64,000 nucleotides of DNA, taken from assembly GCA_016201795.1 (NCBI GenBank), contig JACQCF010000004.1, positions 74,117-138,116 on the forward strand. Direction: 5' to 3'. Made by a program: the position numbers and the translations under genes. This DNA comes from Candidatus Omnitrophota bacterium. GTDB taxonomy: Bacteria > Omnitrophota > Gorgyraeia > Zapsychrales > Fredricksoniimonadaceae. A model generated the notes under the pieces. It was not told where the DNA came from and ran no database searches. It was given only the letters and a program-made list of their open reading frames with translations. Shown piece after piece: positions 2,209 through 64,000 of this stretch; position 1 is the stretch's first letter, and every line of letters starts with the position of its first letter.

Positions 2209-4113
2209 ATGTTTAAATCTTTAGAGCTTCTCGTCGGCCAGAACATTCATTTCGATGATGTCATCAAAATTCTAGTCGCCTTTGGTTTTTTCAGGGCGAC
2301 TAAAGTTTTTAAAGAGGGTGAATTTGCCCTGCGCGGCGGCATTCTCGACATTTATCCGGCCAATTTCGAGGTTCCCTTACGTATTGATACCGAAGATGAC
2401 GTGATTCACTCCATTACCGGGTTCGATTTATCCAGCGGGAAGATGATTGAAGAGCATCAGATCGTGATCATCCTGCCGTTTAAAACATCTTTCCAGGCGG
2501 TTTTTTCGTCGGAAATTCCTCTTAATAATTTCGTAGACATCGAAGCAGGTGATTTGGTCGTGCATAACAATCACGGCATCGGCCGATTTTTGGGCATCCG
2601 TGAATTTGAACTCAATTGGCAAAAAAAAGAACATTTGATCATTGAGTATAAAGACGGGGACAGGCTTTTTGTGCCCAAACACGACCTTCATCTGGTGCAA
2701 AAATATGTTACTTTTACTAAAAAGACCACCAGGCTTAATAAATTGGGCAGTAAAGAATGGGCAGCGACCCGTCGGGCCATTGAGAAAAAACTAAAACAGA
2801 TGGCCGCTGAGCTTTTACGCATTCAGGCTTTGCGCACCCAGTTGGCCGGCTACGCCTTTTCCAAAGATACCGACTGGCAGAGGGAATTTGAAGCCAGGTT
2901 TCCTTATCAGGAGACTCCGGATCAAATGAAAGCAACTATGGAAGTCAAAAAAGACATGGAGGAAGCCGGGCCCATGGACCGGCTGATTTGTGGGGATGTC
3001 GGTTACGGTAAAACCGAGGTAGCCATGCGTGCGGCGTTTAAAGCAGTCATGGATCATAAGCAGGCGGCGATTTTAGTGCCGACGACGATTTTAGCGGAGC
3101 AGCATTATTACAATTTCACCAAACGCTTGGAAGGTTTTCCGGTGAAAGTGGCCATGCTTTCGCGTTTTCGTACCAAGTCCGAGCAGACAGCGATTATCCG
3201 GGAGCTTCAAGAGGGCAAGGTGGATATCATTATCGGCACGCATCGGCTTTTGTCCAAAGACATTGCCTTTAAAGATTTAGGGCTGGTCATTATCGACGAG
3301 GAACAGCGTTTTGGCGTTAAATCTAAAGAAAAACTTAAAACATTTCGGCTTTTGGCGGATGTGCTGACTCTTTCGGCTACTCCCATTCCACGTACTTTAT
3401 ACATGGCGCTTGCCGGGGCACGGGATATGTCGGTGATTGCAACCCCGCCGACGAATCGTTTATCCGTAAAGACCCAAATCATTCCTTTTGATGAAGAGAT
3501 TATTGAAGAAGCTATTGGGCGGGAATTGGCCCGTCATGGCCAGGTTTTTTTCTTGCACAACCGCGTGGATAATATTGAAATAATCGCTCAAAGCATAAAG
3601 TATATGGTCCCGCAGGCCAGGGTCGAGATTGCTCATGGGCAAATGAGTGGTCGTCTTTTGGAAGAAATTATGTTAAAATTTCTGCAACAAAAAATCGACG
3701 TTCTGGTTTGTACGACGATCGTCGAATCCGGCATTGATGTCCCTTCAGCGAATACTTTGATTGTTAATCGGGCGGATCAATTCGGGCTTTCGGAGCTTCA
3801 TCAATTAAGAGGCCGCGTGGGCCGGCTGGATGTACAGGCCTGGGCCTATTTGATCGTACCGTCAAACCAAGCATTATCCGAAGTGTCCAAACAAAGACTG
3901 AAGGCCATTGAAAAATACAGCGATTTAGGTGCCGGTTTTCATATCGCCTTTGAAGATTTGCAGATTCGCGGCGCCGGCAATTTACTGGGCGCCCAGCAGC
4001 ATGGGTTTATATCCTCGATTGGTTTTGATTTGTATTGCCGAATGCTCAAGGAATCTATCGAACATCTCAAAAAAGAATTGGAGATCAAAGACCATGAACA
4101 CACATTGGTTTAG
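2209..4113 (+). CDS. mfd: Transcription-repair coupling factor Mfd, compact 634-aa form lacking most of the N-terminal UvrB-homology region
   Basis: RNAP-interacting D4-like segment (VVHNNHGIGRFLGIREFE…YKDGDRLFVP). SF2 translocase motifs (GDVGYGKTEV, DEEQRFGV, SATPIPRT, QLRGRVGR). Start of the TRCF domain (DLQIRGAGNLLGAQQHGF). The N-terminal residues keep only one UvrB-like GEFALRGGILDIYP module. The start abuts the secDF stop. Confidence 0.85.
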   Translation: MFKSLELLVGQNIHFDDVIKILVAFGFFRATKVFKEGEFALRGGILDIYPANFEVPLRIDTEDDVIHSITGFDLSSGKMIEEHQIVIILPFKTSFQAVFSSEIPLNNFVDIEAGDLVVHNNHGIGRFLGIREFELNWQKKEHLIIEYKDGDRLFVPKHDLHLVQKYVTFTKKTTRLNKLGSKEWAATRRAIEKKLKQMAAELLRIQALRTQLAGYAFSKDTDWQREFEARFPYQETPDQMKATMEVKKDMEEAGPMDRLICGDVGYGKTEVAMRAAFKAVMDHKQAAILVPTTILAEQHYYNFTKRLEGFPVKVAMLSRFRTKSEQTAIIRELQEGKVDIIIGTHRLLSKDIAFKDLGLVIIDEEQRFGVKSKEKLKTFRLLADVLTLSATPIPRTLYMALAGARDMSVIATPPTNRLSVKTQIIPFDEEIIEEAIGRELARHGQVFFLHNRVDNIEIIAQSIKYMVPQARVEIAHGQMSGRLLEEIMLKFLQQKIDVLVCTTIVESGIDVPSANTLIVNRADQFGLSELHQLRGRVGRLDVQAWAYLIVPSNQALSEVSKQRLKAIEKYSDLGAGFHIAFEDLQIRGAGNLLGAQQHGFISSIGFDLYCRMLKESIEHLKKELEIKDHEHTLV

Positions 4114-5035
4114 AGTTTTTAGTTGTATTGTCTTGGCTTTGATGATCCCTTCGCTGGCGGCGGCCAAGCCCCTTCATGACGCTATTATCGCCATTGTCAA
4201 CGATGATGTGATTACCCTTAAAGATCTCAAAGATTACATGAGCGGTGTTTACCGCCAGTTGAAAGTAGAGAATAAAGACCCTAAGGAAATTCAGGAAACC
4301 ATGGCCTCTTATGAAGAAAAGGGGGTTGATCAGCTGGTGGAAGATAAATTGATTTTAGCCGCGGCGGATGAGAAGGGTTTGGAAATCCGACCGGAGGCTA
4401 TTGAAAAACAGCTTAAAGATATCAAAGACCGTTATCCTTCGGAGGATCAATTTTTGGAGGCCCTTAATACTCAGGGTATGACGGTGACGGATTTAAAAAA
4501 TAAGCTCATCCGTCAGATGAAAGCCAAATATATGGTGGATATCGAAGTCAAAAATAAAATTTTTGTTAACCCTCAGGACGTAACTCGTTATTACAATGAT
4601 CATAGCCATGAATTTGAACACAAAACTAAATACAATCTTGATTCGATTTATATTTCTTTCGACCAGGATAAAGATCAGGCTATCAAGCGTATTGGTGAAG
4701 CCCGTCAGAAGTTAGCTGCTGGCGAAGATTTTCAGAAGATGGCCCAAGAATATTCCGAGGCGCCTTCGGTAGGAACACTCGAAGAAGGACAAATGGTCCC
4801 AGCCGTCGAAAAAGAAGTATTCGGTCTTAAAATAGGAGATATTTCACAGCCGGTGGCGGTCGAAGGCGGGGTGTATGTATTTAAGGTGACCGGTATTTTG
4901 GCAGGAGGGGTGCAATCGCTTCAGGAGGCCAGAGACAGCGTTTACAATAAACTTTACAATCAACAATTTCAGGAAAAATTTAAGGCCTGGATTGATAAGT
5001 TACACGAAAAAGCTTATGTCGAAATCCGCAGTTAG
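4094..5035 (+). CDS. Periplasmic chaperone / peptidyl-prolyl isomerase, SurA-like (SurA_N + PpiC rotamase domain)
   Basis: Signal peptide (MNTHWFRVFSCIVLALMIPSLAAA). SurA-N-like helical region. C-terminal parvulin/PpiC motif (…GQMVPAVEKEVFGLKIGDISQPVAVEGGVYVFKV). The track ORF starts at 3929, but the ATG at 4094 is followed by a signal peptide and overlaps the mfd stop by only 20 nt. Confidence 0.8.
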   Translation: MNTHWFRVFSCIVLALMIPSLAAAKPLHDAIIAIVNDDVITLKDLKDYMSGVYRQLKVENKDPKEIQETMASYEEKGVDQLVEDKLILAAADEKGLEIRPEAIEKQLKDIKDRYPSEDQFLEALNTQGMTVTDLKNKLIRQMKAKYMVDIEVKNKIFVNPQDVTRYYNDHSHEFEHKTKYNLDSIYISFDQDKDQAIKRIGEARQKLAAGEDFQKMAQEYSEAPSVGTLEEGQMVPAVEKEVFGLKIGDISQPVAVEGGVYVFKVTGILAGGVQSLQEARDSVYNKLYNQQFQEKFKAWIDKLHEKAYVEIRS

Positions 5036-18583: not shown

Positions 18584-20518
18584 ATGCCGCAGCCGAATTT
18601 AACAAGTAAAAGGCCTCCTCGTCTTAATCGCAACAATAAACCCAACGGCACTTTTTGGTTTTGGGTGATTTTGGGGATGGTTTTCTTATTGCTTATTCGC
18701 AACAGTCAATATACTGTCAAGAATGAGCAGGAAATTTCTTACAGTGAATTTTATAATATTCTTAAGGATAATCCCAAAACCCATCAGATTAAAAAAGTAG
18801 AGTTAACCGAAGGGCCGGCGAATAGTATCACAGGTGTTTTTGCCGACCAGAGTAAATTCCATTTGAATATCCCGCAGCATGACGAAGACCTTGTTAAACT
18901 CACCCGTGACAATGTGAGTGATTTTACGGTGGTACCGCCGGAACTTTTCTGGGGACAGTTGTTTTTGCAATTGATACCTGTCATCGGTTTTTTTGCTTTG
19001 ATCTGGTTTTTGTCTTATCGGGGCAGCCAGATGGGTAATAAGGTTTTTTCTTTCGGTAAATCCCGCGCGCAGTTGGGTGGCGGTGGGCCGGTGACTTTTA
19101 ATGATGTGGCCGGTGTGGATGAAGCCAAGGAAGAGTTACAGGAAGTCATTGAATTTCTCAAAGACCCCAAGAGGTTTGAACGCTTAGGCGGTAAAATCCC
19201 AAAAGGTGTTTTGCTCGTCGGTCCCCCGGGAACTGGTAAAACCCTTTTAGCGAAAGCTGTGGCCGGGGAGGCGGGCGTACCGTTTTTTTCTTTAAGCGGT
19301 TCGGATTTCGTAGAAATGTTTGTGGGGGTGGGCGCCTCGCGCGTGCGCGATTTGTTCGAACAGGGCCGTAAGGCCGCCAAAACCTCAGGCAAAGGGTGTA
19401 TTATTTTTATTGATGAAATTGATGCGGTGGGTCGTCAGCGTTTTGCCGGTATCGGCGGCGGCAATGATGAGCGCGAGCAGACCCTTAATGCTTTGTTAGT
19501 GGAGATGGATGGGTTTAATTCCGTGAGCGGTTTGATTTTGATTGCAGCCACCAACCGTCCTGACACGCTGGATCCTGCCCTGCTTCGTCCCGGCCGTTTT
19601 GACCGTCAGATCGTCGTGGGCCTGCCGGATATTAATGGCCGTGAGGGTATTTTGAAAGTGCATAGCAAGAATATTAAATTGTCCGAAGATGTAAATTTAA
19701 GACGTGTAGCCCAGCAAACCGTATATTTTTCCGGAGCAGATTTGGCCAACGTGTGCAATGAAGCCGCTCTTTTAGCGGCCCGCCGTAATAAAGAGAAGGT
19801 GGGTATGGATGAAATGTTAGCCGCGGTTGAACGTGTGACCATGGGCCCCGAGAAGAAAAACCGCGTGACCTCCAAAAAAGAAAAAGAGATGACCGCTTAT
19901 CATGAAGCCGGACACGCCCTGTTGTCTGTTTTAATCGATGAAGTGGACACCTTTACTAAAGTTTCTATTATTCCGCGCGGGATGGCCGGTGGTTATACGT
20001 TAACGCCCCCGACAGAAGATAAACATTACATCTCCAAAAGGGAATTGAAGGGGATGATGACGGTACTCTTAGGCGGTATGGTCGGCGAAGAAATTTATAT
20101 GGGAGATACTACGACAGGTGTTTCCAATGATTTGCAGAGAGTTTCTCAACTGGCCCGCAGCATGGTCTGCGAATACGGTATGAGCGATAAGCTTGATAAA
20201 CTGGCTTTCGGTAAACATAATCAACAGATTTTTTTAGGTCGTGATTTTTTTGAAGAAAAGAATTACAGTGAGGAGACGGCGCGCAAAATTGACGAAGAAG
20301 TTCACAATATCGTGCACGGATGTTATGACAGGGCCAGGAATCTTTTGCTGCAAAACCGCGACAAGCTGGATGCGCTGGCCAAGCGTTTGATTGAAAAAGA
20401 AACCTTGGATATTGAAGAAGCCCGGGCATTTTTAAATATCCCCGAACATAAATTAAATTTGCATCATGAAGAGCCGCAGTCTAACGGCATACCCCCTTCG
20501 ACCCCATTATCTTCTTAA
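18584..20518 (+). CDS. ftsH: ATP-dependent zinc metalloprotease FtsH
   Basis: Two N-terminal TM segments. AAA+ Walker [12 protein letters not shown]. Zn-protease HEAGHA motif. 644 aa. Confidence 0.95.
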
Positions 20519-24922: not shown

Positions 24923-26566
24923 ATGTCAGCAAAACAGTTATTATTCGATGATGAAGCACGCCGCAAAGTTTTAAGCGGGGTGGAACAATTATCCCGCGCG
25001 GTTAAAATCACCCTGGGCCCCAAAGGCCGCAACGTGGTTTTGGACAAAAAATTCGGCTCACCCACCGTTACCAAAGACGGGGTGTCGGTGGCCAAGGAAA
25101 TCGAATTAGAAGATCCCTTTGAAAATATGGGCGCTCAAATGGTCAAGGAAGTGGCCGAGAAAACTTCCGATATAGCAGGCGACGGCACCACCACGGCGAC
25201 GGTTTTAGCAGAGGCTATTTACCGTGAAGGTTTAAAGAACGTTACGGCCGGCGCTAACCCCATGGCACTCAAGCGCGGTATTGAGCAAGCTGTAGTGAAA
25301 GTGGTTAGCAGAATCGAGAAAATTTCCAAGAAAGTTGATTTGAAGAATTCCAAAGAAGTCGAGCAGGTAGCCGCCATCGCGGCCAACAGCGATACCGTGA
25401 TCGGTAAGAAAATCGCCGAGGCTTTTGAGGCCGTTGGCAAAGACGGCGTCATCACGGTTGAGGAAAGCAAGACGATCAACACGGAGTTAAAAATCGTCGA
25501 AGGGATGCAGTTCGACCAGGGGTATTTGTCTCCGTATTTCTCCACCGATATGGAGAAAATGATCTGCGAACTGGAAGATCCTTATATCCTGCTTTATGAA
25601 AAGAAAATTTCCAGCATCAAAGACATTTTACCAGTGCTGGAAAAAGTGGCCAAATCTGGCCGTCCGTTGTTAATCATCTGCGAAGATGTGGAAGGCGAGG
25701 CCTTAGCCACCTTGGTGGTCAATAAGATGCGTGGCACATTGCATTGTGCTGCGGTTAAAGCCCCGGGCTATGGGGACCGTCGTAAAGAAATGCTCAAAGA
25801 CATTGCCGTTTTAACTGGCGGTAAAGCGGTGACCGAGGATTTAGGCTTAAAATTGGAAAATCTGGACGTTGCCGATTTAGGCCGAGCTAAAAAGGTCAAG
25901 ATTGACAAAGACAATACCACCATCGTTGAAGGTCAGGGCAAACAGGCGGATATCAAAGGCCGCATTGCCCAGATCAAGAATCAGATTGACACTACCGATT
26001 CTTCTTATGATAAAGAAAAATTACAAGAACGCTTAGCTAAGCTTTCCGGCGGTGTGGCCATTATTAATGTCGGGGCTGCTACCGAAAGTGAAATGAAGGA
26101 AAAGAAGGCCCGTGTGGAAGATGCCTTGCACGCAACCCGTGCGGCCGTAGAAGAAGGAATTGTCCCCGGAGGCGGGGTGGCGTTATTACGCTGTATGAAA
26201 GAGCTTGAAAATATTGAACTTCAAGACGATGAAAAGACCGGTGCCGACATCGTGCGTCGAGCCTTAGAGTCACCCATACGCCAACTGGCGTCCAATGCCG
26301 GATTGGAAGGTTCGGTGATTGTGGAACATTTGAAGCATGAAAAAGATAATAATGTCGGCTATGATTTTGACCGAGATGAATATATTGATATGTTTGTCTG
26401 TGGAGTTATTGATCCGGCAAAGGTAACCCGTACCGCCTTGCAAAATGCGGCCAGTATTGCCGGTTTATTGCTAACAACCGAATGTTTGGTTACTGATGTT
26501 CAGGAAAAGGAAAAATCGGCTATGCCAGCCATGCCTCCAGGCGGCGGCATGGGCGGGATGTATTAA
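24923..26566 (+). CDS. groEL: Chaperonin GroEL
   Basis: 547 aa. …[16 protein letters not shown]…. C-terminal GGM repeat (GGGMGGMY). Confidence 0.97.
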
Positions 26567-56708: not shown

Positions 56709-57748
56709 AGAAATATTTTTATGAGCTTATGATGGACAAACGCCATGGCTTGATTGATAAAATCATTCAGGCGGTTTTATGGATTTTGTCGTTGGGCTAT
56801 TGTCTGATGGTTGCCCTTACGCGGCTGTTGTATCAAAAAGGCTTTTTGTCCGTCTATGAGAGCCCCCGACCGGTTGTTAGCATCGGCAATATTACCAGCG
56901 GAGGAGTTGGCAAAACACCTCTGGTTATTTGGCTGGCTAAAGTTTACCATGAAAGGCAAGTGAAGGTTGTTGTTTTGAGCCGCGGCTACGGTTCTGTTGA
57001 AGGCTTAAATGATGAAACCAAGATGTTCCAAGAACTATTACCGCAAGTGCCGATTGTCATCGGATCAAACAGAAAAGAAAGTATTCGAAAAATTTTTGAG
57101 AAATGGCCGGTGGATATTTTTCTGGCCGATGATGCCTTTCAGCATTGGCCTTTAAAGAGAGATTTGGATATTGTCACGGTGGATGCCGCCTATCCGTTCG
57201 GTAATGGTCATTTGTTGCCGCGGGGAATTTTACGCGAGAAGCCATCGGCCTTGGAGCGTGCGGATATTTTTGTATTAACCAAAACAGATAAAGTACAAAG
57301 TACTCAAGAGCTTTGTAATCAATTGCACCAGATTAATCCTGGGGCTTTAGTTGTCAAATCCCGTCATGTCCCTCGGCGTTTTCATAATTTTGAAGGACAT
57401 ACGACCAACCTTGAGATTCTTAAGGGTCAGAAAGTGTTGGCGTTTTGCGCTATTGGGGATCCCTCTTCGTTTGAACACACACTGCAACAATTAGGGCTTG
57501 TGGTATCCAAAGTTTTTACTTTTGTGGATCATCATCATTACAGCGAAGATGATCTTCAGAAAGTGGTCAACCATGCCAGAAAAGAAAATATCAAGATTAT
57601 TGTGACGACGCACAAAGATGACGTTAAAATAACACCTTTTAGAAATGTGTTTTACAAGGAAACTGTTCTAATTTTGGATATTGAATTAGAAATCACTCAA
57701 GGTCAAGATGAGCTCATTCAACGAGTCCTTTCTTTGCGGCGCCGTTAG
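56696..57748 (+). CDS. lpxK: Tetraacyldisaccharide 4'-kinase LpxK
   Basis: …VVSIGNITSGGVGKTPLVIWLA… P-loop. …VVLSRGYG…. Alternative start at 56705 (ATGA overlap with waaA). Confidence 0.88.
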   Translation: MVIMKKYFYELMMDKRHGLIDKIIQAVLWILSLGYCLMVALTRLLYQKGFLSVYESPRPVVSIGNITSGGVGKTPLVIWLAKVYHERQVKVVVLSRGYGSVEGLNDETKMFQELLPQVPIVIGSNRKESIRKIFEKWPVDIFLADDAFQHWPLKRDLDIVTVDAAYPFGNGHLLPRGILREKPSALERADIFVLTKTDKVQSTQELCNQLHQINPGALVVKSRHVPRRFHNFEGHTTNLEILKGQKVLAFCAIGDPSSFEHTLQQLGLVVSKVFTFVDHHHYSEDDLQKVVNHARKENIKIIVTTHKDDVKITPFRNVFYKETVLILDIELEITQGQDELIQRVLSLRRR

Positions 57749-59675
57749 ATTTTTAGGCGCTTGTTTCTGCCGACTGCCTTATTGCTTAAGCCGGGGCATG
57801 GCCCGCAGCATAGGGCTGGTGGGCTATTATCTGTTGGGTAAAAAAAGGGCTGTTGTCGAGGCTAATCTCAGGATAGCTTTATCCACCATCAAATCCCCGC
57901 AGGAAATTCGTCCTCTGGTTAAAAATGTTTTCCAAAATTTTGTCTGTAGCTTTGTGGATTTGCTTTGCGTACCTAAAATTAAAAGCCGAGGATTTGAGAA
58001 GTTCGTTACTTGCCAGGGGTGGGAAAATATCACTCAGGCTTTGTCTTTGGGCAGAGGATGTATCCTTTTAGCGGTTCATTCAGGAAGTTGGGAGTTGGCC
58101 AGTTTAGTCGGAAGCATGTGCGGCCACCCCTATAATGTTGTCGTTAATGATCAACCCAAAGCTTCCAAGCTTAATGAACTCCTTAATGAGTATCGACGTT
58201 TGGCGGGAGCAAAAGTGATTTATCCTGGTTCTGCCATCCGTGAGATTATGCGCGTTTTGAAGGACAATGAAATTGTCACTCTGGTGCTGGACCAGGGAGG
58301 TAAAGACGGTATTCCTGTAGAGTTTTTGGGTAAAACAGCCTCTATGTCAACAGGGGCCATTCGTTTAGGACTTAAATATCAAATACCAGTTTGTCCGGTA
58401 TGGATTGAGCGCCAATCAGAAGGCAGGCATGTGCTTAAATTTTTTTCTGCTTTGACGTTGCAGACGGGCAGTCCTATGGAAGAGGACGTAAGAGTCAATA
58501 CCCAAAAAGCTGTAAGGTTTTTTGAAAATTTTTTGCGTGAACACCCTGCGGAATATATGTGGTTTTACAAGGTCTACAAATACACCACCCAGGCCGATGT
58601 GCTGATTTTAGATGACGGTAAAACAGGACATTTACGTCAGTCCCAGGCCGTGGCAGAGGTGCTTAAGACAGCGTTGAATAGAGCGGGTAAACAAGTACGT
58701 CTTAAGACGGTGACGATTGAGTTTATTCATCCTTTGAATCAGAAAATATTTGTTGTTTATTGCCTCGCAGCTCAAATTCTTACCTTTTTAAGACAAGAAG
58801 AAATTCTGCGGTTTTTTCTCAAGCCGGATTGTTACAAAGCATTGATGGCCACCAGGGCTAATTATATTATTTCTTGCGGTTCTCAAACAGCGGGGATCAA
58901 TTTTATAATGGCACCTTTAGGAGGGGTTAAATCTATTCATATTTTAAAACCAGGGCTTTTGGATTGGAGTTGGTTTTCTTTGATTGTTTTGCCAGAGCAT
59001 GACAAGGCTCACAGCAAAAGCCACCCACGCCTGGTATTCACAAAAGTGGCTTTAAATTTGATTAGCCCTGATTATTTGAAACAACAGCAGGAAAAACTTT
59101 TGCTTCGTTATTCGCATTTGAAAACGAGTGTACGCTCCAAAATGGGTGTTTTATTGGGAGGCAACGCTAAAGGAGTTCTTTACAATGTGAATCAGTTGCG
59201 TTTGTTGATTCGTCAGCTCAAAGAAGCAGCGCAGCATTTTAATATGGACCTTCTGGTGACAACTTCCCGCCGCACACCGCCTCAAGTGGATGAAATGATC
59301 ATCAAAGAACTGCGCCGTTTCGAGCGATGTCCCTTTTTGGTGATCGCCAATGAAAGCAATGTTCCCGAAGCACTCGGCGGTATTTTAGCTTTGTCTGACC
59401 TTTTGATCGTCTCGGGGGAAAGTATTTCCATGGTTTCGGAGGCTATAGCGTCGGGCAAAAAGACTATCGTCTTTGCTCCCAATGGCACCTATGCGCCGCG
59501 GCCCTCCAATAAATATGACCGTTTTGTTTTAGAGTTAAACCAGCAGGGGTACTTGTTGGCCTCGTCGATTAAAGATATTTCTAACTCCATCAGCCAGGTG
59601 ATGCGTCAAAAAATTTCTCCTAAAACCATGGATGATCAGACCAACATTTTACAAGCCATCGAGGCTATTGTGTAA
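57708..59675 (+). CDS. Two-domain protein: N-terminal lipid A biosynthesis (Kdo)2-lipid IVA acyltransferase (LpxL/HtrB family) fused to a C-terminal ELM1/DUF1022-like domain
   Basis: N-terminal half has the Lip_A_acyltrans pattern with HSGSWE (H-x4-E/D catalytic dyad) and …IVTLVLDQGGKDGIPVEFLGKTASMSTGAIRLGL…. The C-terminal ~350 aa (…MGVLLGGNAKGVLYN…DLLVTTSRRTPPQ…IANESNVPE…LIVSGESISMVSEAIASGK…) resembles the ELM1/DUF1022 family often found in LPS loci. Confidence 0.65.
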   Translation: MSSFNESFLCGAVRFLGACFCRLPYCLSRGMARSIGLVGYYLLGKKRAVVEANLRIALSTIKSPQEIRPLVKNVFQNFVCSFVDLLCVPKIKSRGFEKFVTCQGWENITQALSLGRGCILLAVHSGSWELASLVGSMCGHPYNVVVNDQPKASKLNELLNEYRRLAGAKVIYPGSAIREIMRVLKDNEIVTLVLDQGGKDGIPVEFLGKTASMSTGAIRLGLKYQIPVCPVWIERQSEGRHVLKFFSALTLQTGSPMEEDVRVNTQKAVRFFENFLREHPAEYMWFYKVYKYTTQADVLILDDGKTGHLRQSQAVAEVLKTALNRAGKQVRLKTVTIEFIHPLNQKIFVVYCLAAQILTFLRQEEILRFFLKPDCYKALMATRANYIISCGSQTAGINFIMAPLGGVKSIHILKPGLLDWSWFSLIVLPEHDKAHSKSHPRLVFTKVALNLISPDYLKQQQEKLLLRYSHLKTSVRSKMGVLLGGNAKGVLYNVNQLRLLIRQLKEAAQHFNMDLLVTTSRRTPPQVDEMIIKELRRFERCPFLVIANESNVPEALGGILALSDLLIVSGESISMVSEAIASGKKTIVFAPNGTYAPRPSNKYDRFVLELNQQGYLLASSIKDISNSISQVMRQKISPKTMDDQTNILQAIEAIV

Positions 59676-59703
59676 TAGTAATTGTTTAGAAATTTTGATA
59701 CGG

Positions 59704-59800
59704 TTTCCCCTCCCTTGGTGGGAGGGGTTAGGGGAGGGGGATCAACGCAGATCATCGCTTTTATGCCCCCTCCCTTACCCTCCCCACAAGGGGGAGGGAA
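59704..59800 (+). repeat. G-rich inverted-repeat element, 'empty' copy: arm A (59704-59740) and arm B (59766-59800) separated by 25 nt
   Basis: A = TTTCCCCTCCCTTGGTGGGAGGGGTTAGGGGAGGGGG. B = CCCCCTCCCTTACCCTCCCCACAAGGGGGAGGGAA. B is approximately the reverse complement of A. Each arm contains an internal hairpin and four G-runs. Confidence 0.75.
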
Positions 59801-59820
59801 GACAATGAGAAATATTTATC

Positions 59821-61908
59821 ATGAATATCTTGCAAATTCTTCCAGAGCTTAATGTGGGCGGAGTGGAGACCGGCACGCTTGATCTGGCCCGGTATTTAAT
59901 TCATCAGGGGCATAAATCGGTGGTGGTCTCTGCCGGCGGAACTTTGGTGGCTGAACTGGAGAAAAACGGCTCCATTCACTATATCCTACCGGTGAATAAG
60001 AAAAATTTTTTTGTGATGTTTTCGGCGATCCATAAGCTCATGGGTATTATCCGCAGAGAAAAAGTCGATATTGTGCATGCGCGTTCCAGAGTCCCGGCTT
60101 GGGTGGCGTTTTTGGCCTGCCGTCGGACGCAGGCTGTTTTTATGACCAGCTGCCATGGCTATTACAGCCGACATTTCTTCAGTCGCGTGATGGGCTGGGG
60201 TAAATTGGTGATCGCCATCAGTGAAGTGATCGGCCAGTACATGGTGCAGGATTTTGGTGTACCTTCGCGTTATGTGCGTATTATTCCCCGCAGTGTGGAT
60301 ACGTCCAAATTTAATCTTGCGCGTGGGACCAAAGGGCCTGGGGATCCTTTTCTCATCACTATGATCGGCCGTCTGACACCGCTGAAAGGCCATCCGTTTT
60401 TCCTCAAAGCCATGGCGCAGGTTCTAAGGTCCTTGCCCAATGTCAAAATCCAAATCATCGGCGATGCGTCCCCTAAGCGTCCCAGATATAAAGAGGAGTT
60501 GGTGCTGTTAACCAAACGTTTAGGGATCACTCATCATGTGGAGTTTATGGGCAATCGCCGGGACATTCCTCAGTTATTGGCCGCCTCGGACTGTTTGGTT
60601 TTATCCACTATCACTCCAGAGGCCTTTGGCCGGGTGATTTTGGAAGCTCAGGCCGCCGGTGTGCCGGTGGTGGCCACCAAAGTCGGAGGAGTATCAGAAA
60701 TCATTGATCATGAAAAAACCGGTCTTTTAGTATTACCCAATAATATCGAAGCGATGGCACAGGCGGTGTTGCGTATTCTCAAAGACCGCGCTTTCGCGGC
60801 CAGCCTGGTAGTCGAGGCCCAAAAAAAGATCGAACAGCATTATACGTTAAAGCATATGGCTGAGGCGACGCTGCACGTTTATCATGAAGCCGTGAGCTCG
60901 CTTAACATTCTGGTGATTAAATTGACGGCGCTAGGAGACGTGGTTTTAGCAACCGCCTCTTTAAAAGCGCTGCGTCAGAAATTTCCCACGGCCCAGATTC
61001 ATGTGCTCACCTCACCGCAGGCCAGCTTAATCGTGCAGCGTTGTCCTTATGTGAATGGCGTCATTGTTTTTGACCCATCCCATAAAGACCCGCTTTCGAT
61101 TTGGCGGATGAGTCAGATGCTGCGTCAATATCGTCTTGATAAAGTCATTGATTTGCAAAATAATCGGCTCAGCCATCTTTTGAGCTTCTTAAGTCTTGCC
61201 AAACAAACTTACGGTTATCATAACGGTAAATTCGGATTTCTTTTAAGTCATTCGATCAAAAATAACATACTGTCTATGGCGCCGGTGGAGCATCAGTTTC
61301 GTGTGCTTAAACTTTTGGGGATCGACTATAATCCGCCGGTGTCCTTAGAACTTTGGCCCTCCGCTAAAGATTACGAATATGCTCAAAGTCTTTTGGACAG
61401 CGAATGGATGGGCCATTATAAAGATATGGTGGGATTAAATATTTCGGCGTCCCGGCGATGGGCAACGAAGAATTGGCTAACGGAGCACATGGTCAAGTTA
61501 TGTGATCTTTTAGGTGCTCATAATATTCGGGTGATCCTAACCGGACAAGCCAAAGATCAAAATCTGGCCCGTCTGCTGGTGTCGAAATCGAAGTCCAAAC
61601 CCGCCAACTTCACGGGCAAAACCAACATTTTACAATTGGCTGCTTTGATTAGCCGATGCCGGGTGTACATTTCCCCTGATTCGGCCCCGCTGCATGTAGC
61701 CTCGGCCATGCAGGTACCGGTGGTTGCTTTTTTTGGTCCTACGGATCCTGTACGGCATATGCCGCCGGTGACCAAAGCAGCGGTTTTGCGGCGGGACCTT
61801 AAATGTTCGCCGTGTTATGCGGGGGTTTGCAAAATTAAAACACACGCGTGTATGAAAGAAATCACCCCAGAGTACGTTGCTCAAAAAGTGATGGAACTGA
61901 TGCGATGA
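59821..61908 (+). CDS. Bifunctional glycosyltransferase: N-terminal GT4 (RfaG/WaaG-like) fused to a C-terminal GT9 ADP-heptose:LPS heptosyltransferase domain
   Basis: N-terminal MNILQILPELNVGGVETGTLDLARYL…E-x7-E-type GT4 motifs (…FGRVILEAQAAGVPVVATKVGG…). C-terminal LNILVIKLTALGDVVLATASLKAL… and …PDSAPLHVASAMQVPVVAFFGPTDP… are typical of RfaF/RfaC heptosyltransferases. Confidence 0.8.
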   Translation: MNILQILPELNVGGVETGTLDLARYLIHQGHKSVVVSAGGTLVAELEKNGSIHYILPVNKKNFFVMFSAIHKLMGIIRREKVDIVHARSRVPAWVAFLACRRTQAVFMTSCHGYYSRHFFSRVMGWGKLVIAISEVIGQYMVQDFGVPSRYVRIIPRSVDTSKFNLARGTKGPGDPFLITMIGRLTPLKGHPFFLKAMAQVLRSLPNVKIQIIGDASPKRPRYKEELVLLTKRLGITHHVEFMGNRRDIPQLLAASDCLVLSTITPEAFGRVILEAQAAGVPVVATKVGGVSEIIDHEKTGLLVLPNNIEAMAQAVLRILKDRAFAASLVVEAQKKIEQHYTLKHMAEATLHVYHEAVSSLNILVIKLTALGDVVLATASLKALRQKFPTAQIHVLTSPQASLIVQRCPYVNGVIVFDPSHKDPLSIWRMSQMLRQYRLDKVIDLQNNRLSHLLSFLSLAKQTYGYHNGKFGFLLSHSIKNNILSMAPVEHQFRVLKLLGIDYNPPVSLELWPSAKDYEYAQSLLDSEWMGHYKDMVGLNISASRRWATKNWLTEHMVKLCDLLGAHNIRVILTGQAKDQNLARLLVSKSKSKPANFTGKTNILQLAALISRCRVYISPDSAPLHVASAMQVPVVAFFGPTDPVRHMPPVTKAAVLRRDLKCSPCYAGVCKIKTHACMKEITPEYVAQKVMELMR

Positions 61909-63023
61909 ATATTTTATTTTTGACCACTCATCTAAATACGGGGGGCATTACCAGTTATCTTTTGAGCTTGAGCCGCGGTTTGCAAGCGCAAGGTCATCAG
62001 GTGTTTGTGGCCAGCGCCGGCGGGGATTGTGAAAATATTTTCAAAAATGATGGCGGCAGGCATTTCAATTTGGGTTTTCGCACCAAATCCGAAATTGACC
62101 CAAGAATTTATTTGAGTTTGGGGCCTTTAAAAAAATTTGTCTATAAAGAAAATATTAATATTATCCACGCCCAAACCAGAGTCACGCAGGTGATGGGATA
62201 TTTTTTGGCACGCATGAGCCACAAACCTCTGGTGACAACCTGCCACGGCTTTTTTAAACCGCGGTTTTTCCGTCGGATTTTTTCCTGCTGGGGCCAGGCG
62301 GTGATTGCGATTAGTAAACCCGTTAAGGAACATTTAGTGAGAGATTTTGGCCTCGATCCTAAAAAAGTTCATTGGATTGCCAACGGCATTGACTGCTCCA
62401 AGTTTGTTTTGGCCACCGAGGCTTTAAAACAACAGACACGTCAAAGGTGGAATATTCAGGCTAAATTCGTGATTGGCCTCATTGCCCGATTTTCAGATGT
62501 GAAGGGCATTGATGTTTTGATTAAGAGTATGCCTTTAGTCATTCAACAATATCCGGACGTGCTTTTCATGGTTGTCGGCCAGGGGCCCGAACAAGAGAAA
62601 TTGTTTAATCTGGCGGAAGGTTTAAATTTAAAAACTCACGTGCGTTTTGAGAACATTGTCAATCAAACGGCAGATATTTTACCGGCTTTTGATCTATTCG
62701 TGATGCCTTCACGTCAGGAAGGCCTGGGATTGTCGGTGATGGAAGCTCAGTCCTGTGGACTGCCGGTGATCGCCTCTGGCGTTGGCGGTCTGGTGGATTT
62801 GATTGAAGACGGCAAAACAGGATATTTGGTGTCAGCGGGCGACAGCAAGGCTTTGGCTGCTAAAATCAACGAGGTCTTGCGAAATCCTTTGCAGGCTAGA
62901 GAGGTTGGTCTGGCTGCCAGAGAATATATCGCCCGGAATTTTTCTCTGGAAAAAATGGTGTCCGCTACCGAAAAAATTTATGAACGTAATTGTGGTTTCC
63001 CCTCCCCTTGTGGGAGGGGTTAG
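61905..63023 (+). CDS. GT4 family glycosyltransferase (LPS core / RfaG-like)
   Basis: MNILFLTTHLNTGGITSYLLSL…; …LSVMEAQSCGLPVIASGVGG…. ATGA overlap with the preceding gene. The last 10 codons (…CGFPSPCGRG*) are encoded by repeat arm A2. Confidence 0.8.
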   Translation: MNILFLTTHLNTGGITSYLLSLSRGLQAQGHQVFVASAGGDCENIFKNDGGRHFNLGFRTKSEIDPRIYLSLGPLKKFVYKENINIIHAQTRVTQVMGYFLARMSHKPLVTTCHGFFKPRFFRRIFSCWGQAVIAISKPVKEHLVRDFGLDPKKVHWIANGIDCSKFVLATEALKQQTRQRWNIQAKFVIGLIARFSDVKGIDVLIKSMPLVIQQYPDVLFMVVGQGPEQEKLFNLAEGLNLKTHVRFENIVNQTADILPAFDLFVMPSRQEGLGLSVMEAQSCGLPVIASGVGGLVDLIEDGKTGYLVSAGDSKALAAKINEVLRNPLQAREVGLAAREYIARNFSLEKMVSATEKIYERNCGFPSPCGRG

Positions 63024-63398
63024 GGGAGGGGGTAAATTGAAGAAAGCATTAACGCTCAGAGCAAAAGAATTGAGAAATAATTCCACTGAAGCTGAAAAAT
63101 ATCTCTGGTATGTCCTTCGACTTGAAAACCTGGGGGTTAAGTTTCGTAGGCAAACCGTTATTGGTCGATATATTGTAGATTTTGTATGTTTTGAAAGGAA
63201 ATTGGTGGTTGAGCTTGACGGTGGACAACATGCTCAGAGTCAGCATGATCATGTACGGGACCAATGGCTTAAGGGGCAGGGGTTTGAGGTTTTAAGGTTT
63301 TGGAACCATGATGTACTTGGGAATCGGGAGGAAGTTTTACAAAAGATAGTTGATTGTTTGACTCCCCCTCCCTTACCCTCCCCACAGGGGGGAGGGAA
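62996..63398 (+). mobile_element. Second copy of the G-rich inverted-repeat element, here carrying a DUF559 endonuclease-like gene between arm A2 (62996-63032) and arm B2 (63364-63398)
   Basis: A2 = TTTCCCCTCCCCTTGTGGGAGGGGTTAGGGGAGGGGG and B2 = CCCCCTCCCTTACCCTCCCCACAGGGGGGAGGGAA. Each is ~95% identical to A1/B1. The internal segment is ~330 nt here versus 25 nt in the empty copy. Confidence 0.6.
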
Positions 63399-63438
63399 TA
63401 CATGTTATCAAAACCCACAGGGGGATGGAATCCAATGA
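63037..63438 (+). CDS. DUF559 domain protein (Vsr/very-short-patch-repair endonuclease-like fold), cargo of the repeat-flanked element
   Basis: …KKALTLRAKELRNNSTEAEKYLWYVLRLENLGVKFRRQTVIGRYIVDFVCFERKLVVELDGGQHAQSQHDHVRDQWLKGQGFEVLRFWNHDV… matches the DUF559/YcjD pattern (LRk..T.aE..LW..LR…kFrRQ…yivDF…kLvvElDG..H…D..R…L…G..VlRF.N.dv). Probable TTG start at 63037 right after arm A2. The C-terminal tail …TPPPLPSPQGGGN is encoded by arm B2. Confidence 0.65.
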   Translation: MKKALTLRAKELRNNSTEAEKYLWYVLRLENLGVKFRRQTVIGRYIVDFVCFERKLVVELDGGQHAQSQHDHVRDQWLKGQGFEVLRFWNHDVLGNREEVLQKIVDCLTPPPLPSPQGGGNTCYQNPQGDGIQ

Positions 63439-63461
63439 TAAAGAACGCTAAATAAATACCT

Positions 63462-64000
63462 ATGAACAATATTCTGGTTGTTAATGTCAATTGGCTGGGG
63501 GATGCGGTTTTTTCCACGCCTGTTTTTGGTGCGCTCAAAGATAATTTCCCTAAGGCGCGCGTGAGCTGTTTGTGCGTCCCCAGGGTTCAAGAGGTGTTGA
63601 AATTCTGCCCTTTTATTGATGAGCTCATTGTTTACGACGAAAAAGGCTCCCATCAATGGCCCTTAGCCAAATGGTTTTTGAGTAGTGATTTGCGCCGCCG
63701 TTCGTTTGACGCGGCCTTTTTACTACATCGCTCCACGACCCGCGCGCTTTTGGTTTATCTGGCCGGTATTCCTATCAGGGTTGGTTATTCCAAAGCCAAA
63801 AATCTTTTGACGCATCCGGTGGATTTTAATGATGAAGGTATTCATCGCTCTGACCTTTATTTAGAAGCGCTGGAATCTTACGGTTTAAAAATCAACAATA
63901 GGACCTGCCGGTTGAATTTGAATCTCGAGGATGCCAAAAGGTTAGATCAACTTTTGCAGGGCAAAGGCATAGACCCTCAGGAAAAATTTATGGTGCTTCA
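63462..64000 (+). CDS. ADP-heptose:LPS heptosyltransferase (GT9, RfaF/RfaC/RfaQ family), 3'-truncated by the window end
   Basis: MNNILVVNVNWLGDAVFSTPVFGALKDNFPKARVSCLCVP… is the hallmark GT9 N-terminus. It runs to the end of the window without a stop. Confidence 0.75.
   Translation, partial: MNNILVVNVNWLGDAVFSTPVFGALKDNFPKARVSCLCVPRVQEVLKFCPFIDELIVYDEKGSHQWPLAKWFLSSDLRRRSFDAAFLLHRSTTRALLVYLAGIPIRVGYSKAKNLLTHPVDFNDEGIHRSDLYLEALESYGLKINNRTCRLNLNLEDAKRLDQLLQGKGIDPQEKFMVL

What the first reader, a model, noticed from the sequence alone, without database searches (positions are those of the whole stretch)
59704..59800. 'Empty' copy of the G-quadruplex-capable inverted-repeat element between the acyltransferase fusion gene and the GT4-GT9 gene; it supplies the downstream RBS
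- A1 (TTTCCCCTCCCTTGGTGGGAGGGGTTAGGGGAGGGGG) has four G-runs, G3-A-G4-TTA-G4-A-G5, with 1-3 nt loops. That is a canonical G-quadruplex-forming arrangement, and it even embeds a TTAGGG unit.
- B1 carries the equivalent G-runs on the opposite strand.
- The end of A1 (GGGGAGGGGG) can pair with the start of B1 (CCCCCTCCC) across a 25-nt loop, so the RNA could fold into a long hairpin or a G4.
- The 3' end of the element (GGGGGAGGGAAG) sits exactly where the next gene needs a Shine-Dalgarno sequence.
- A structure-forming repeat acting as an intergenic regulatory or insulator element, and as a hotspot for insertion, is unusual.
Basis: seen in the sequence. Interest (0 to 1): 0.6.

Follow-up and report, generated by a model that had tools for sequence, protein, structure and literature searches.

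The report
Triplex-motif repeat pair linked to DUF559
The 97-base element is an inserted, gene-less copy of a widespread selfish DNA repeat (an inverted pair of BoxC/PIT-type triplex-forming motifs) whose gene-carrying copies encode a small DUF559 endonuclease, a link that may explain where these long-puzzling repeats come from.

Summary
The sequence is as described and far from chance. It is not a local duplication. It is an inverted pair of G/C-rich class II intrastrand-triplex motifs, the kind already described as BoxC, PIT or TMECO in E. coli, Synechocystis and others.

- **It is an insertion.** The closest relatives (74-87% identical) lack it. There the two flanking LPS genes overlap (ATGA). 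The window has a 146-nt insert at that point.
- **The G4 reading is secondary.** G4 potential is real on paper (G4Hunter 2.6), but it is not conserved across the family. Hairpins plus a mirror-repeat third strand are conserved (80 arms against 3). NMR on the E. coli motif showed a triplex, not a G4.
- **The RBS claim fails.** GGAGG lies 23 nt from the true start codon. It serves only a 15-codon uORF.
- **New point.** The filled copy, and at least 60 of 77 related metagenomic loci, carry a DUF559 (YcjD-like, Vsr-fold) endonuclease gene between the two motifs. E. coli ycjD itself sits beside the original BoxC. I found no published report of this link.

Best model: a REPIN/RAYT-like selfish system in which DUF559 acts on the triplex-forming arms. 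The association is shown. Mobilisation by DUF559 is inferred.

The parts
59673..59818 (+). Whole 146-nt insertion relative to the closest relatives. It holds a 29-nt AT-rich left part with stops TAA TAG TAA, the two arms, and a 20-nt right tail.
   Evidence: Alignment with L205 (87%) and L204 (78%), where the two genes overlap as GTGTCATGA. Gene tables of L204, L205, L207 and L208.
59707..59740 (+). Left arm A1: a class II purine-motif intrastrand triplex motif on the + strand. Order: Y CCCCTCCC, loop TTGGT, R GGGAGGGG, loop TTA, mirror third strand GGGGAGGGGG.
   Evidence: Sequence. ITxF-like scan. G4Hunter +2.60.
59741..59765 (.). 25-nt spacer between the arms. The DUF559 gene sits at this position in the full copy.
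   Evidence: Not significantly similar to the DUF559 interior (p = 0.41). Spacers of clean pairs elsewhere are 22-88 nt, median 35.
59766..59798 (-). Right arm B1: the same kind of triplex motif read on the - strand. Order on that strand: Y CCCTCCCCC, loop TTGT, R GGGGAGGG, loop TAA, third strand GGGAGGGGG.
   Evidence: G4Hunter -2.16.
59799..59818 (+). Right tail of the insert (AAGACAATGAGAAATATTTA). It resembles the distal tail of the full copy.
   Evidence: tail similarity p about 0.03.
59805..59852 (+). 15-codon uORF (MRNIYHEYLANSSRA*). Its ATG lies 7 nt after the arm's GGGAGG. It is out of frame with the GT4-GT9 start at 59821 and runs across it.
62986..63459 (+). Full copy: a 474-nt insertion made of left arm, DUF559 gene, right arm and tail.
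   Evidence: Relatives L207 and L208 have the GT4 and GT9 genes overlapping by 23 nt with no insert.
62979..62985 (.). Left copy of the 7-bp direct repeat TATGAAC, an apparent target-site duplication.
   Evidence: Read. Relatives have a single TATGAAC at the GT4/GT9 junction.
63460..63466 (.). Right copy of TATGAAC. It contains the ATG of the downstream GT9 gene.
62999..63032 (+). Left arm of the full copy. It supplies the last 9 codons and the TAG stop (63021-63023) of the GT4 gene. Its GGGAGG is the SD, 7 nt before the DUF559 TTG start.
63037..63438 (+). DUF559 endonuclease ORF (TTG start). The domain covers aa 5-108. The ORF reads through the right arm.
   Evidence: Pfam PF04480, E 2.9e-40. 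PDB 3HRL, E 1.4e-31. NCBIfam PRK09767/YcjD. Invariant D48, E59, D61 and H65.
63364..63396 (-). Right arm of the full copy: a triplex motif on the - strand.
63413..63442 (+). Degenerate second right end (CCCACAGGGGGATGGAATCCAATGATAAA).

Best explanation
**What it is**
The element is a gene-less (non-autonomous) member of a selfish repeat family. Each unit is an inverted pair of G/C-rich class II intrastrand-triplex motifs, the BoxC/PIT/TMECO kind. Each motif runs pyrimidine strand, loop, purine strand, TTA, mirror-image purine strand.

**Where it landed**
This copy arrived as a 146-nt insertion in the 4-nt stop/start overlap of two LPS-core genes. It gave the upstream gene new stop codons. It separated the downstream gene from its old SD.

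**The gene-carrying form**
Full members of the family, including the copy 3.2 kb downstream, carry a DUF559 (YcjD-like, Vsr-fold PD-(D/E)xK) endonuclease gene between the two motifs. The gene is translated from the SD formed by the inner G-run.

**Proposed mechanism (inferred, not shown)**
- When the DNA is single-stranded or supercoiled, each arm folds into a hairpin or triplex.
- The DUF559 nuclease recognises and cuts these structures.
- Host repair or replication then copies the pair, with or without the gene, into new sites. RAYT transposases do something comparable for REP/REPIN doublets.

**How sure**
- Identity as an inserted triplex-motif pair: about 0.85.
- A family-wide link to DUF559: about 0.9.
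- DUF559 being the mobilising enzyme: about 0.4.
For: **Insertion**
- Relatives lack both copies and have overlapping genes at those points.
- A 7-bp TATGAAC duplication flanks the full copy.
- A Logan contig carrying the GT4-GT9 gene ends at both copies, consistent with assembly breaking at a repeat.

**A family, not a local duplication**
- The exact 20-mer occurs in at least 120 stretches from many phyla.
- Of 126 occurrences, 63 have an inverted partner within 130 nt downstream, 30 have it upstream, 6 have a far partner (4 of these with DUF559), and 34 are solo.

**Link to DUF559**
- About 100 of the 120 best homologues have C-terminal tails that translate the right arm in one of three frames, or stop inside it (my reading of the tails printed).
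- 60 of 77 metagenomic DUF559 loci have a significant flank inverted repeat.
- Triplex motifs occur in 45 of 77 upstream and 47 of 77 downstream flanks, against 4 of 201 and 1 of 201 control windows. There are 41 distinct sequence versions.
- The third strand fits mirror geometry in 80 arms and direct geometry in 3.
- Arm similarity tracks protein similarity (rho 0.23, Mantel 0 of 500).
- No other protein recurs near the repeat across phyla.
- The same layout is seen in Sphingomonas, Deinococcus, Synechocystis and Neisseria.
- E. coli ycjD lies next to a perfect TMECO upstream of fabI.

**Nuclease likely active**
- Catalytic D/E/D/H columns are invariant.
- A DUF559 protein causes DNA damage in Caulobacter (PMC12907096).

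**Triplex**
- TMECO forms a triplex by NMR (PMC4666352).
Against: - No biochemical or genetic evidence exists that any DUF559 protein binds, cuts or moves these motifs. The fold has no known strand-transfer activity.
- Copy 1 has no recognisable target duplication. A systematic search for duplications around 93 pairs did not differ from shuffles, apart from single cases.
- The spacer of the empty copy shows no trace of a deleted DUF559 gene (p = 0.41).
- The identical 20-mer sits next to DUF559 proteins only 38-67% identical to the window's.
- E. coli genomes without ycjD still hold 2-19 motifs.
- Holder et al. found no mobility genes near TMECOs, and Maher's group found no promoter or terminator activity.
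Confidence: 0.5

Rival explanations
1. The triplex-motif pairs are an independent, pre-existing repeat. DUF559 is a free-standing homing endonuclease gene that cuts empty pairs and copies itself into their centre by recombination, using the arms as homology. On this view the 59.7-kb copy is an unoccupied homing site, not a derivative of the gene-carrying form.
For: - Empty pairs vastly outnumber filled ones (63 against about 4 of 126).
- The spacer is unrelated to DUF559, and spacers vary widely.
- Vsr-fold homing endonucleases exist: I-Bth0305I (PMC3239194) and the fractured-genes family (PMC2677866), both listed.
- The gene sits exactly between the arms in both orientations of the pair.
- The full copy has a second degenerate right end, which suggests a two-step history.
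Against: - It leaves the spread of the pairs themselves unexplained.
- The full copy is flanked by a 7-bp duplication at a site where relatives have no pair.
- The arms offer only about 35 nt of homology.
- DUF559 relatives are nearly absent from phages (2 of 50,697 records), where such genes usually thrive.
Confidence: 0.25
2. One reading: a G-quadruplex-forming regulatory or insulator element in DNA or mRNA that also provides the Shine-Dalgarno sequence for the GT4-GT9 gene.
For: - Four G-runs with 1-3-1 nt loops.
- G4Hunter 2.60 and -2.16, the highest values in the window.
- GGGAGG followed by ATG at 7 nt.
Against: - The C-rich complement lies directly alongside, so a hairpin or triplex competes.
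- The G4 motif is not conserved in the family.
- TMECO NMR shows a triplex, not a G4.
- The SD is 23 nt from the real start and serves only an out-of-frame uORF.
- The element is absent from close relatives whose genes are translationally coupled.
- It is a repeat found next to unrelated genes in many phyla.
Confidence: 0.07
3. A selfish insertion by origin, but now kept because its strong hairpin in the polycistronic mRNA serves the host. It could act as a REP-like barrier to 3'-5' decay, or as a way of uncoupling and tuning expression of the two LPS genes.
For: - Very stable predicted RNA hairpin (-65.8 kcal/mol).
- It lies inside a co-directional operon.
- Full copies are likewise wedged between co-oriented operon genes.
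- REP elements are known to act this way (established knowledge).
Against: - Absent from all four relatives examined.
- No U-tract, so it is not a terminator.
- PIT elements showed no promoter or terminator activity and no effect on RNA polymerase.
- No positional conservation.
Confidence: 0.12
4. A local duplication restricted to this gene cluster.
For: Both copies lie within 3.3 kb of each other in one LPS cluster.
Against: - At least 120 stretches in other genomes hold the 20-mer.
- The two copies have different flanks and different contents.
- Both are absent from relatives.
Confidence: 0.01

Closest known systems
BoxC / PIT (potential intrastrand triplex) / TMECO motifs. Sources: Bergler 1992; Hoyne and Maher 2000; Holder et al. 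2015 (PMC4666352).
   Same: - Same layout: C-rich stem, loop of 3-6 nt, G-rich stem, 3-nt loop (TTA = 'type A'), then a G-rich mirror third strand.
[quoted passage not shown]
- Multi-copy.
- Often found as two motifs in inverted configuration; E. coli K-12 has 5 such pairs.
- Associated with local presence/absence variation.
   Different: - The stem sequence is CCCCTCCC/GGGAGGGG, not CCCTCNCCC/GGGNGAGGG, so the published TMECO pattern is not matched.
- The host is Omnitrophota; TMECO was reported in Proteobacteria.
- Here one pair encloses a DUF559 gene. The published work states that no mobility-type genes were ever found nearby.
REP/REPIN doublets and their RAYT transposase (REPtron)
   Same: - Short palindromic repeats that occur as inverted doublets forming a long hairpin.
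- Many gene-less copies per gene-carrying locus.
- A small nuclease gene flanked by the repeats.
- Repeat and protein co-vary.
   Different: - The enzyme is a PD-(D/E)xK Vsr-fold protein, not an HUH Y1 transposase.
- The arms are homopurine/homopyrimidine mirror repeats (triplex-capable), not GTAG-headed REPs.
- Mobilisation has not been demonstrated.
Vsr-fold homing endonucleases (I-Bth0305I, 'EDxHD' family) and Vsr
   Same: - Same fold family in Pfam and the PD-(D/E)xK classification, which groups Vsr, DUF559 and 3R3P (PMC3424549).
- Small selfish nuclease genes.
   Different: - Not located in an intron or intein.
- No cytosine methyltransferase partner gene was seen in what I examined of this locus (not searched for systematically).
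- Flanked by structured inverted repeats, and at one site by a 7-bp duplication.
MITEs and Rickettsia palindromic elements (RPEs)
   Same: - Short, non-coding, with terminal inverted repeats.
- Inserted between genes.
- Related copies lie in frame inside SecA, RecG and Der in CPR bacteria, as RPEs do in Rickettsia.
   Different: - No DDE transposase parent is known.
- Target duplications are inconsistent.
- The arms have internal triplex geometry.

Membership tests
Class II G/C-rich intrastrand triplex motif (BoxC/PIT/TM sensu Holder 2015, ITxF criteria) | Y stem, loop of 1-6 nt, R stem, loop of 1-6 nt, then a third strand antiparallel to R giving G*G:C and A/T*A:T triplets. Stems are 6-15 nt with at most 1 mismatch. 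| tested here: met
   A1 on the + strand and B1 on the - strand both qualify, with 8 perfect triplets (9 with one mismatch) and loops of 5 and 3 nt.
TMECO sensu stricto | Pattern CCCTCNCCC-N3-6-GGGNGAGGG-N3-GGGNGAGGG | tested here: not met
   The stems are CCCCTCCC / GGGAGGGG / GGGGAGGG. Same layout and TTA loop, different sequence.
BoxC/PIT/TM motifs | Oligonucleotide folds into a triplex rather than a G4 or plain hairpin in vitro | not testable with these tools
   Known only for TMECO (CD and NMR, PMC4666352). Indirect support here: mirror geometry is preferred in 80 arms against 3.
BoxC/PIT/TM motifs | Multi-copy, dispersed, often in inverted pairs | tested here: met
   Four arms in the window. 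At least 120 stretches elsewhere, of which 63 of 126 occurrences are pairs like this one.
REPIN/RAYT system | Inverted doublet of a palindromic repeat, plus a gene flanked by the same repeats | tested here: met
REPIN/RAYT system | The associated gene is an HUH Y1 (IS200/IS605-like) transposase | tested here: not met
   The gene is Pfam DUF559 / MTES_1575 with the Vsr fold.
MITE | Terminal inverted repeats and a target-site duplication of fixed length | tested here: inconclusive
   Inverted repeats are present. A 7-bp duplication flanks the full copy, and none is recognisable at the empty copy. Single cases of 7-12 bp occur elsewhere, but there is no overall signal.
MITE | Derived by internal deletion from an element that encodes a transposase | tested here: not met
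   The spacer is not similar to the DUF559 interior (p = 0.41). DUF559 is not a known transposase.
Canonical G-quadruplex motif | Four runs of G3 or more with loops of 1-7 nt, and a high G4Hunter score | tested here: met
   G3-A-G4-TTA-G4-A-G5. G4Hunter 2.60 and -2.16.
Functional G-quadruplex element | The G4 motif is conserved among related elements | tested here: not met
   Present in 24 of 78 upstream flanks and 39 of 78 downstream flanks; both in 20 of 78.
Shine-Dalgarno site of the downstream gene | GGAGG-like core about 5-10 nt upstream of the true start codon | tested here: not met
   23 nt from ATG 59821. The start is confirmed by the 695-aa homologues.
Intrinsic terminator | G+C-rich hairpin followed by a T/U run | tested here: not met
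   No T-run follows either outer hairpin on either strand.
Any Rfam RNA family | Score at or above the family's gathering threshold | tested here: not met
   Only sub-threshold generic miRNA-hairpin matches.
Homing endonuclease gene (Vsr-fold) | The nuclease cleaves the unoccupied allele, and gain occurs without a target duplication | tested here: inconclusive
   Cleavage is not testable here. The full copy has a 7-bp duplication, which is atypical for homing.

The most novel reading that the evidence does not exclude
DUF559/YcjD proteins are the missing partner enzyme of the BoxC/PIT/TM triplex repeats. Together they would form a REPIN/RAYT-like selfish system built on a PD-(D/E)xK nuclease that recognises intrastrand-triplex or hairpin DNA. 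The system would span many bacterial phyla, from E. coli to Omnitrophota and CPR. Its gene-less pairs can insert between overlapping genes, and even in frame inside essential genes.
Probability: 0.4. Interest if true: 0.8.

Novelty: new variant of a known kind. Interest (0 to 1): 0.65.

Why it matters
BoxC/PIT/TMECO repeats have been known since the 1990s. They are abundant: 3610 copies in 262 proteobacterial genomes under one pattern alone. They are linked to local genome instability. No origin, function or mobility mechanism has been found for them.

DUF559/YcjD is a very large family with a solved structure (3HRL) and no assigned function.

A consistent physical association between the two gives a concrete, testable hypothesis for both. 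It would be an example of a protein that may act on triplex-forming DNA in vivo.

For genome annotation it also explains three things:
- the P/G-rich tails on DUF559 proteins, which are translated arms;
- assembly breaks at these sites;
- odd in-frame insertions in CPR genes.

Tried and rejected
- **Rfam scan of the region.** Only sub-threshold miRNA-like hairpins.
- **Literature search for the exact sequences.** Nothing found.
- **Searches on DUF559, ycjD and COG2852.** No paper links them to repeats.
- **Minimum-energy folding of concatenated flanks, to classify three hairpins against one long hairpin.** Uninformative, because the arms are both inverted repeats and self-palindromes, and control windows also gave helices. 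Replaced by alignment-based inverted-repeat scores.
- **Regex classification of pairs.** Too strict. Replaced by alignment.
- **Empty copy as a deletion derivative of the local full copy.** Not supported.
- **Systematic search for target-site duplications.** No overall signal.
- **E. coli empty-versus-full allele comparison at ycjD.** Strains lacking ycjD have a different (eef efflux) segment there, not an empty pair.
- **Phage carriage.** Essentially none.
- **PADLOC defence models.** Only a weak DpdF fragment hit.
- **Two further triplex-motif hits in the window** (25999-26029 and 20230-20263). These are A/T-rich chance matches inside coding genes.

Full report
**1. The observation**

The sequence at 59704-59800 is exactly as described. 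Read in order it holds:
- CCCCTCCC (59707-14), loop TTGGT;
- GGGAGGGG (59720-27), loop TTA;
- GGGGAGGGGG (59731-40);
- a 25-nt spacer;
- CCCCCTCCC (59766-74), loop TTA;
- CCCTCCCC (59778-85), loop ACAA;
- GGGGGAGGG (59790-98).

The octamer GGGAGGGG occurs 8 times in 64 kb, all in two places. Shuffles give 1.9 on average and never 8.

The second place has a left arm at 62994-63032 (95% identical) and a right arm at 63357-63402 (89%), with 324 nt between them.

The strand folds far better than shuffles:
- as RNA, one long hairpin of -65.8 kcal/mol, z -5.5;
- as DNA, three consecutive hairpins of -31.2 kcal/mol, z -4.9.

G4Hunter gives +2.60 on A1 and -2.16 on B1. These are the only |score| >= 2 sites in the window apart from the second copy.

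**2. What fills the other copy**

The 324 nt encode a 107-aa DUF559 domain:
- Pfam PF04480, E 2.9e-40;
- NCBIfam PRK09767, which is E. coli YcjD;
- PDB 3HRL 'endonuclease-like protein', E 1.4e-31.

The ORF starts at TTG 63037, 7 nt after the GGGAGG of the inner G-run, and reads through the right arm. The left arm supplies the last nine codons and the stop of the preceding GT4 gene. The best database match is a Candidatus Omnitrophica MAG protein at 99% identity.

**3. Both copies are insertions**

Nearly all of the 120 listed homologues of the GT4-GT9 fusion are 695 aa. This fixes its start at ATG 59821.

In relatives 87, 78, 76 and 74% identical (L205, L204, L207, L208), the acyltransferase-Elm1 gene and the GT4-GT9 gene overlap as GTGTCATGA. 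The window has 146 extra bases there, 59673-59818 (alignment).

At the next junction the relatives' GT4 and GT9 genes overlap by 23 nt around a single TATGAAC. The window has a 474-nt insert (62986-63459) flanked by TATGAAC on both sides. This looks like a 7-bp target duplication.

No such duplication is recognisable for the empty copy.

A Logan contig carrying the GT4-GT9 gene ends at both copies, consistent with assembly breaking at a repeat.

**4. It is a widespread family**

The hosts include many Sphingomonas, Planctomycetota including Brocadiaceae, Ktedonobacterales, Omnitrophota, Uhrbacteria, deltaproteobacterial/Desulfatiglandales MAGs, Thermodesulfovibrionia and others.

The 126 occurrences break down as follows:

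| Arrangement | Count |
|---|---|
| Inverted partner within 130 nt downstream (same layout as the finding) | 63 |
| Inverted partner upstream (a permuted 'type B' layout) | 30 |
| Partner 130-650 nt away (4 of them with DUF559 in between) | 6 |
| Solo | 34 |

Clean pairs have spacers of 22-88 nt, median 35. This excludes the local-duplication reading.

**5. The DUF559 link is general**

- About 100 of the 120 best DUF559 homologues end in peptides such as SPSLTLPTRGRE, PLPNPPHKGEG or PPPLPSPQGGG. These are the right arm read in three frames. Others stop within it, and 17 begin with left-arm peptides such as GGVRGGG. The figure of about 100 is my reading of the tails that one search's pattern-matching left unclassified.
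- In 80 metagenomic loci with relatives 50-71% identical, 60 of 77 usable loci have a flank inverted repeat above the 95th percentile of displaced control windows.
- The arm sequences differ between lineages, for example CCCTCTCCC/GGGAGAGGG, CCTTCCCCC/GGGGGAAGG and GGTGAGGGGG. The layout is kept.
- Arm similarity rises with protein similarity (rho 0.23, Mantel 0 of 500).
- No other protein recurs within 2 kb of the repeat across phyla.
- Sphingomonas, Deinococcus and Synechocystis loci show triplex-motif arms on both sides of the gene. The Neisseria locus, from the species listed for the closest solved structure, shows only a degenerate motif on each side. In Deinococcus and Synechocystis the motifs are in the type B orientation.
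- Full copies in two other Omnitrophota MAGs are also wedged between co-oriented operon genes.

**6. What the arms are**

Each arm is a pyrimidine strand, its purine complement, and a second purine segment that is the mirror image of the first. This is the class II purine-motif intrastrand triplex described as BoxC, PIT and TMECO (PMC4666352).

That paper reports the following:
- the pattern CCCTCNCCC-N3-6-GGGNGAGGG-N3-GGGNGAGGG, with a TTA ('type A') or CCG second loop;
- 3610 copies in 262 proteobacterial genomes;
- five inverted pairs in E. coli K-12;
- NMR evidence that the oligonucleotide is a triplex and not a G4;
- no promoter or terminator activity (citing Maher's group);
- raised local variability around the motifs;
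- explicitly, no transposase or integrase remnants nearby.

With an ITxF-like scan, A1 on the + strand and B1 on the - strand both qualify. The four arms are the only G/C-rich hits in the window.

Among DUF559 loci the motif is present in 45 of 77 upstream and 47 of 77 downstream flanks, against 4 of 201 and 1 of 201 controls. There are 41 distinct purine/third-strand pairs.

Where the purine strand is asymmetric, the third segment fits the mirror orientation better than the direct one in 80 arms. The reverse holds in 3, with 4 ties. The inverted repeat and the hairpins do not imply this mirror relation. It is therefore evidence that triplex geometry, or something that reads it, is under selection.

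By contrast, a canonical four-run G4 motif survives in only 24 of 78 upstream and 39 of 78 downstream flanks.

**7. E. coli**

The 3' end of ycjD runs into a degenerate motif. Between ycjD and fabI lie a duplicated fragment of the ycjD 3' end and a perfect TMECO. From my own knowledge, BoxC was first noted near envM (= fabI).

ycjD is single-copy and present in 3378 of 5426 complete genomes. Genomes without it carry an efflux (eef) segment at that site instead.

In an evenly spaced sample, a combined ycjD + TMECO query gave these counts:

| Genomes | Places per genome | Mean |
|---|---|---|
| With ycjD | 13-30 | about 22 |
| Without ycjD | 2-19 | about 9.5 |

This fits the model but is confounded by phylogroup.

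**8. The RBS claim**

Strong SD matches in this window mostly lie 5-9 nt from the start codon. The arm's GGGAGG lies 23 nt from ATG 59821. It is 7 nt from ATG 59805, which opens a 15-codon out-of-frame uORF running across the real start.

The ancestral SD (GAGG inside the upstream gene) was displaced by the insertion. The element therefore breaks translational coupling rather than providing an RBS. Any help through the uORF is speculative.

**9. Mechanism**

*Shown:*
- the element is an insertion;
- it belongs to a multi-phylum family;
- the family has triplex-type geometry;
- it is physically associated and co-inherited with DUF559;
- the DUF559 catalytic columns are conserved.

*Inferred:* DUF559 recognises or cuts the folded arms, and this leads to copying of pairs with or without the gene. 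That would be a REPIN/RAYT-like system with a different enzyme.

The main rival is that DUF559 is a homing endonuclease gene that invades pre-existing pairs. That view fits the unrelated spacer and the excess of empty pairs. It leaves the spread of the pairs unexplained, and it sits badly with the 7-bp duplication.

Against both models:
- there is no biochemistry;
- target duplications are inconsistent;
- the identical 20-mer lies next to DUF559 proteins only 38-67% identical to the window's.

**10. Novelty**

The motif type is known. This sequence version and this phylum are new members. I could not find the DUF559 association in the searchable literature, and the main paper on the subject states the opposite. 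I rate it a new variant of a known kind, with moderate to high interest. It makes two old unknowns testable: the origin of BoxC/PIT repeats and the function of DUF559/YcjD.

Noticed in passing
L050 (about 4350-4640, oriented as), L108 (two sites), L114: In the Uhrbacteria locus L050 and two other loci (L108, L114), whose source organism I did not read, a type B pair of the same triplex motifs lies inside SecA, RecG (twice) and Der/EngA. It is in frame and free of stops, and is always read as ...SPPLVGGVRGGG.... This resembles Rickettsia palindromic elements in protein-coding genes.
   Followed up: partly
L095 (about 3430-3560 in the orientation); also L086 and L070: Type B elements in loci L095, L086 and L070 (L070 is a Brocadiaceae MAG; I did not read the taxonomy of L095 and L086) have outer inverted repeats (ACAGTTCACCCCC...GGGGGTGAACTGT) and flanking direct repeats of 9-12 bp. 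In L095 the repeat is ACCTATGACGAA and the host peptide LLTYDET/LFTYDEI is duplicated. A systematic search over all pairs gave no general signal.
   Followed up: partly
L202 7163-7420 (E. coli K-12 NC_000913.3, about 1351162-1351419, minus strand): Downstream of ycjD lie a partial duplicate of the ycjD 3' end and a perfect TMECO (GGGAGAGGGTTAGGGTGAGGGG at L202 7205-7226). The boundary of the strain-variable segment falls just beyond it.
   Followed up: partly
E. coli complete genomes: Genomes with ycjD show about twice as many TMECO-like places as genomes without it (mean about 22 against about 9.5). ST131 and Nissle-type strains have only 2-5. The comparison is confounded by phylogroup.
   Followed up: partly
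window 63413-63442: The full copy has a second, degenerate right end. It matches the empty copy's right end and tail (25 of 30 positions). This may be a trace of nested or two-step insertion.
   Followed up: partly
window 63397-63420; L209 and L210 just after the right arm: A conserved post-arm tail (AATNCATGTTATCAAAAC) is shared by full copies in different genomes. It is mirrored in homologue protein tails such as ...LSKLSVNTEDKK.... In this lineage the element therefore extends beyond the arms.
   Followed up: partly
L216 (Deinococcus proteolyticus plasmid), L214 (Synechocystis sp. B12 plasmid): DUF559 is flanked by the two motifs in the opposite relative orientation, with the third strands outermost. 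This matches the type B gene-less pairs. Two architectures of full element therefore exist.
   Followed up: partly
window 59673-59681: The insert begins with three consecutive in-frame stop codons (TAA TAG TAA). They now terminate the acyltransferase-Elm1 gene one codon earlier than in relatives.
   Followed up: no
window 57708-59675 and 59821-61908: Two unusual fusion genes: a lipid A acyltransferase fused to an Elm1-like domain, and GT4 fused to a GT9 heptosyltransferase. Both are conserved with fixed lengths across many Omnitrophota-like metagenomic relatives.
   Followed up: no
window 25999-26029 (+) and 20230-20263 (-): Two A/T-rich sequences meet the formal triplex-motif criteria, but they lie inside coding sequence (the translations looked to me like GroEL and FtsH; not checked) and look like chance matches.
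   Followed up: yes
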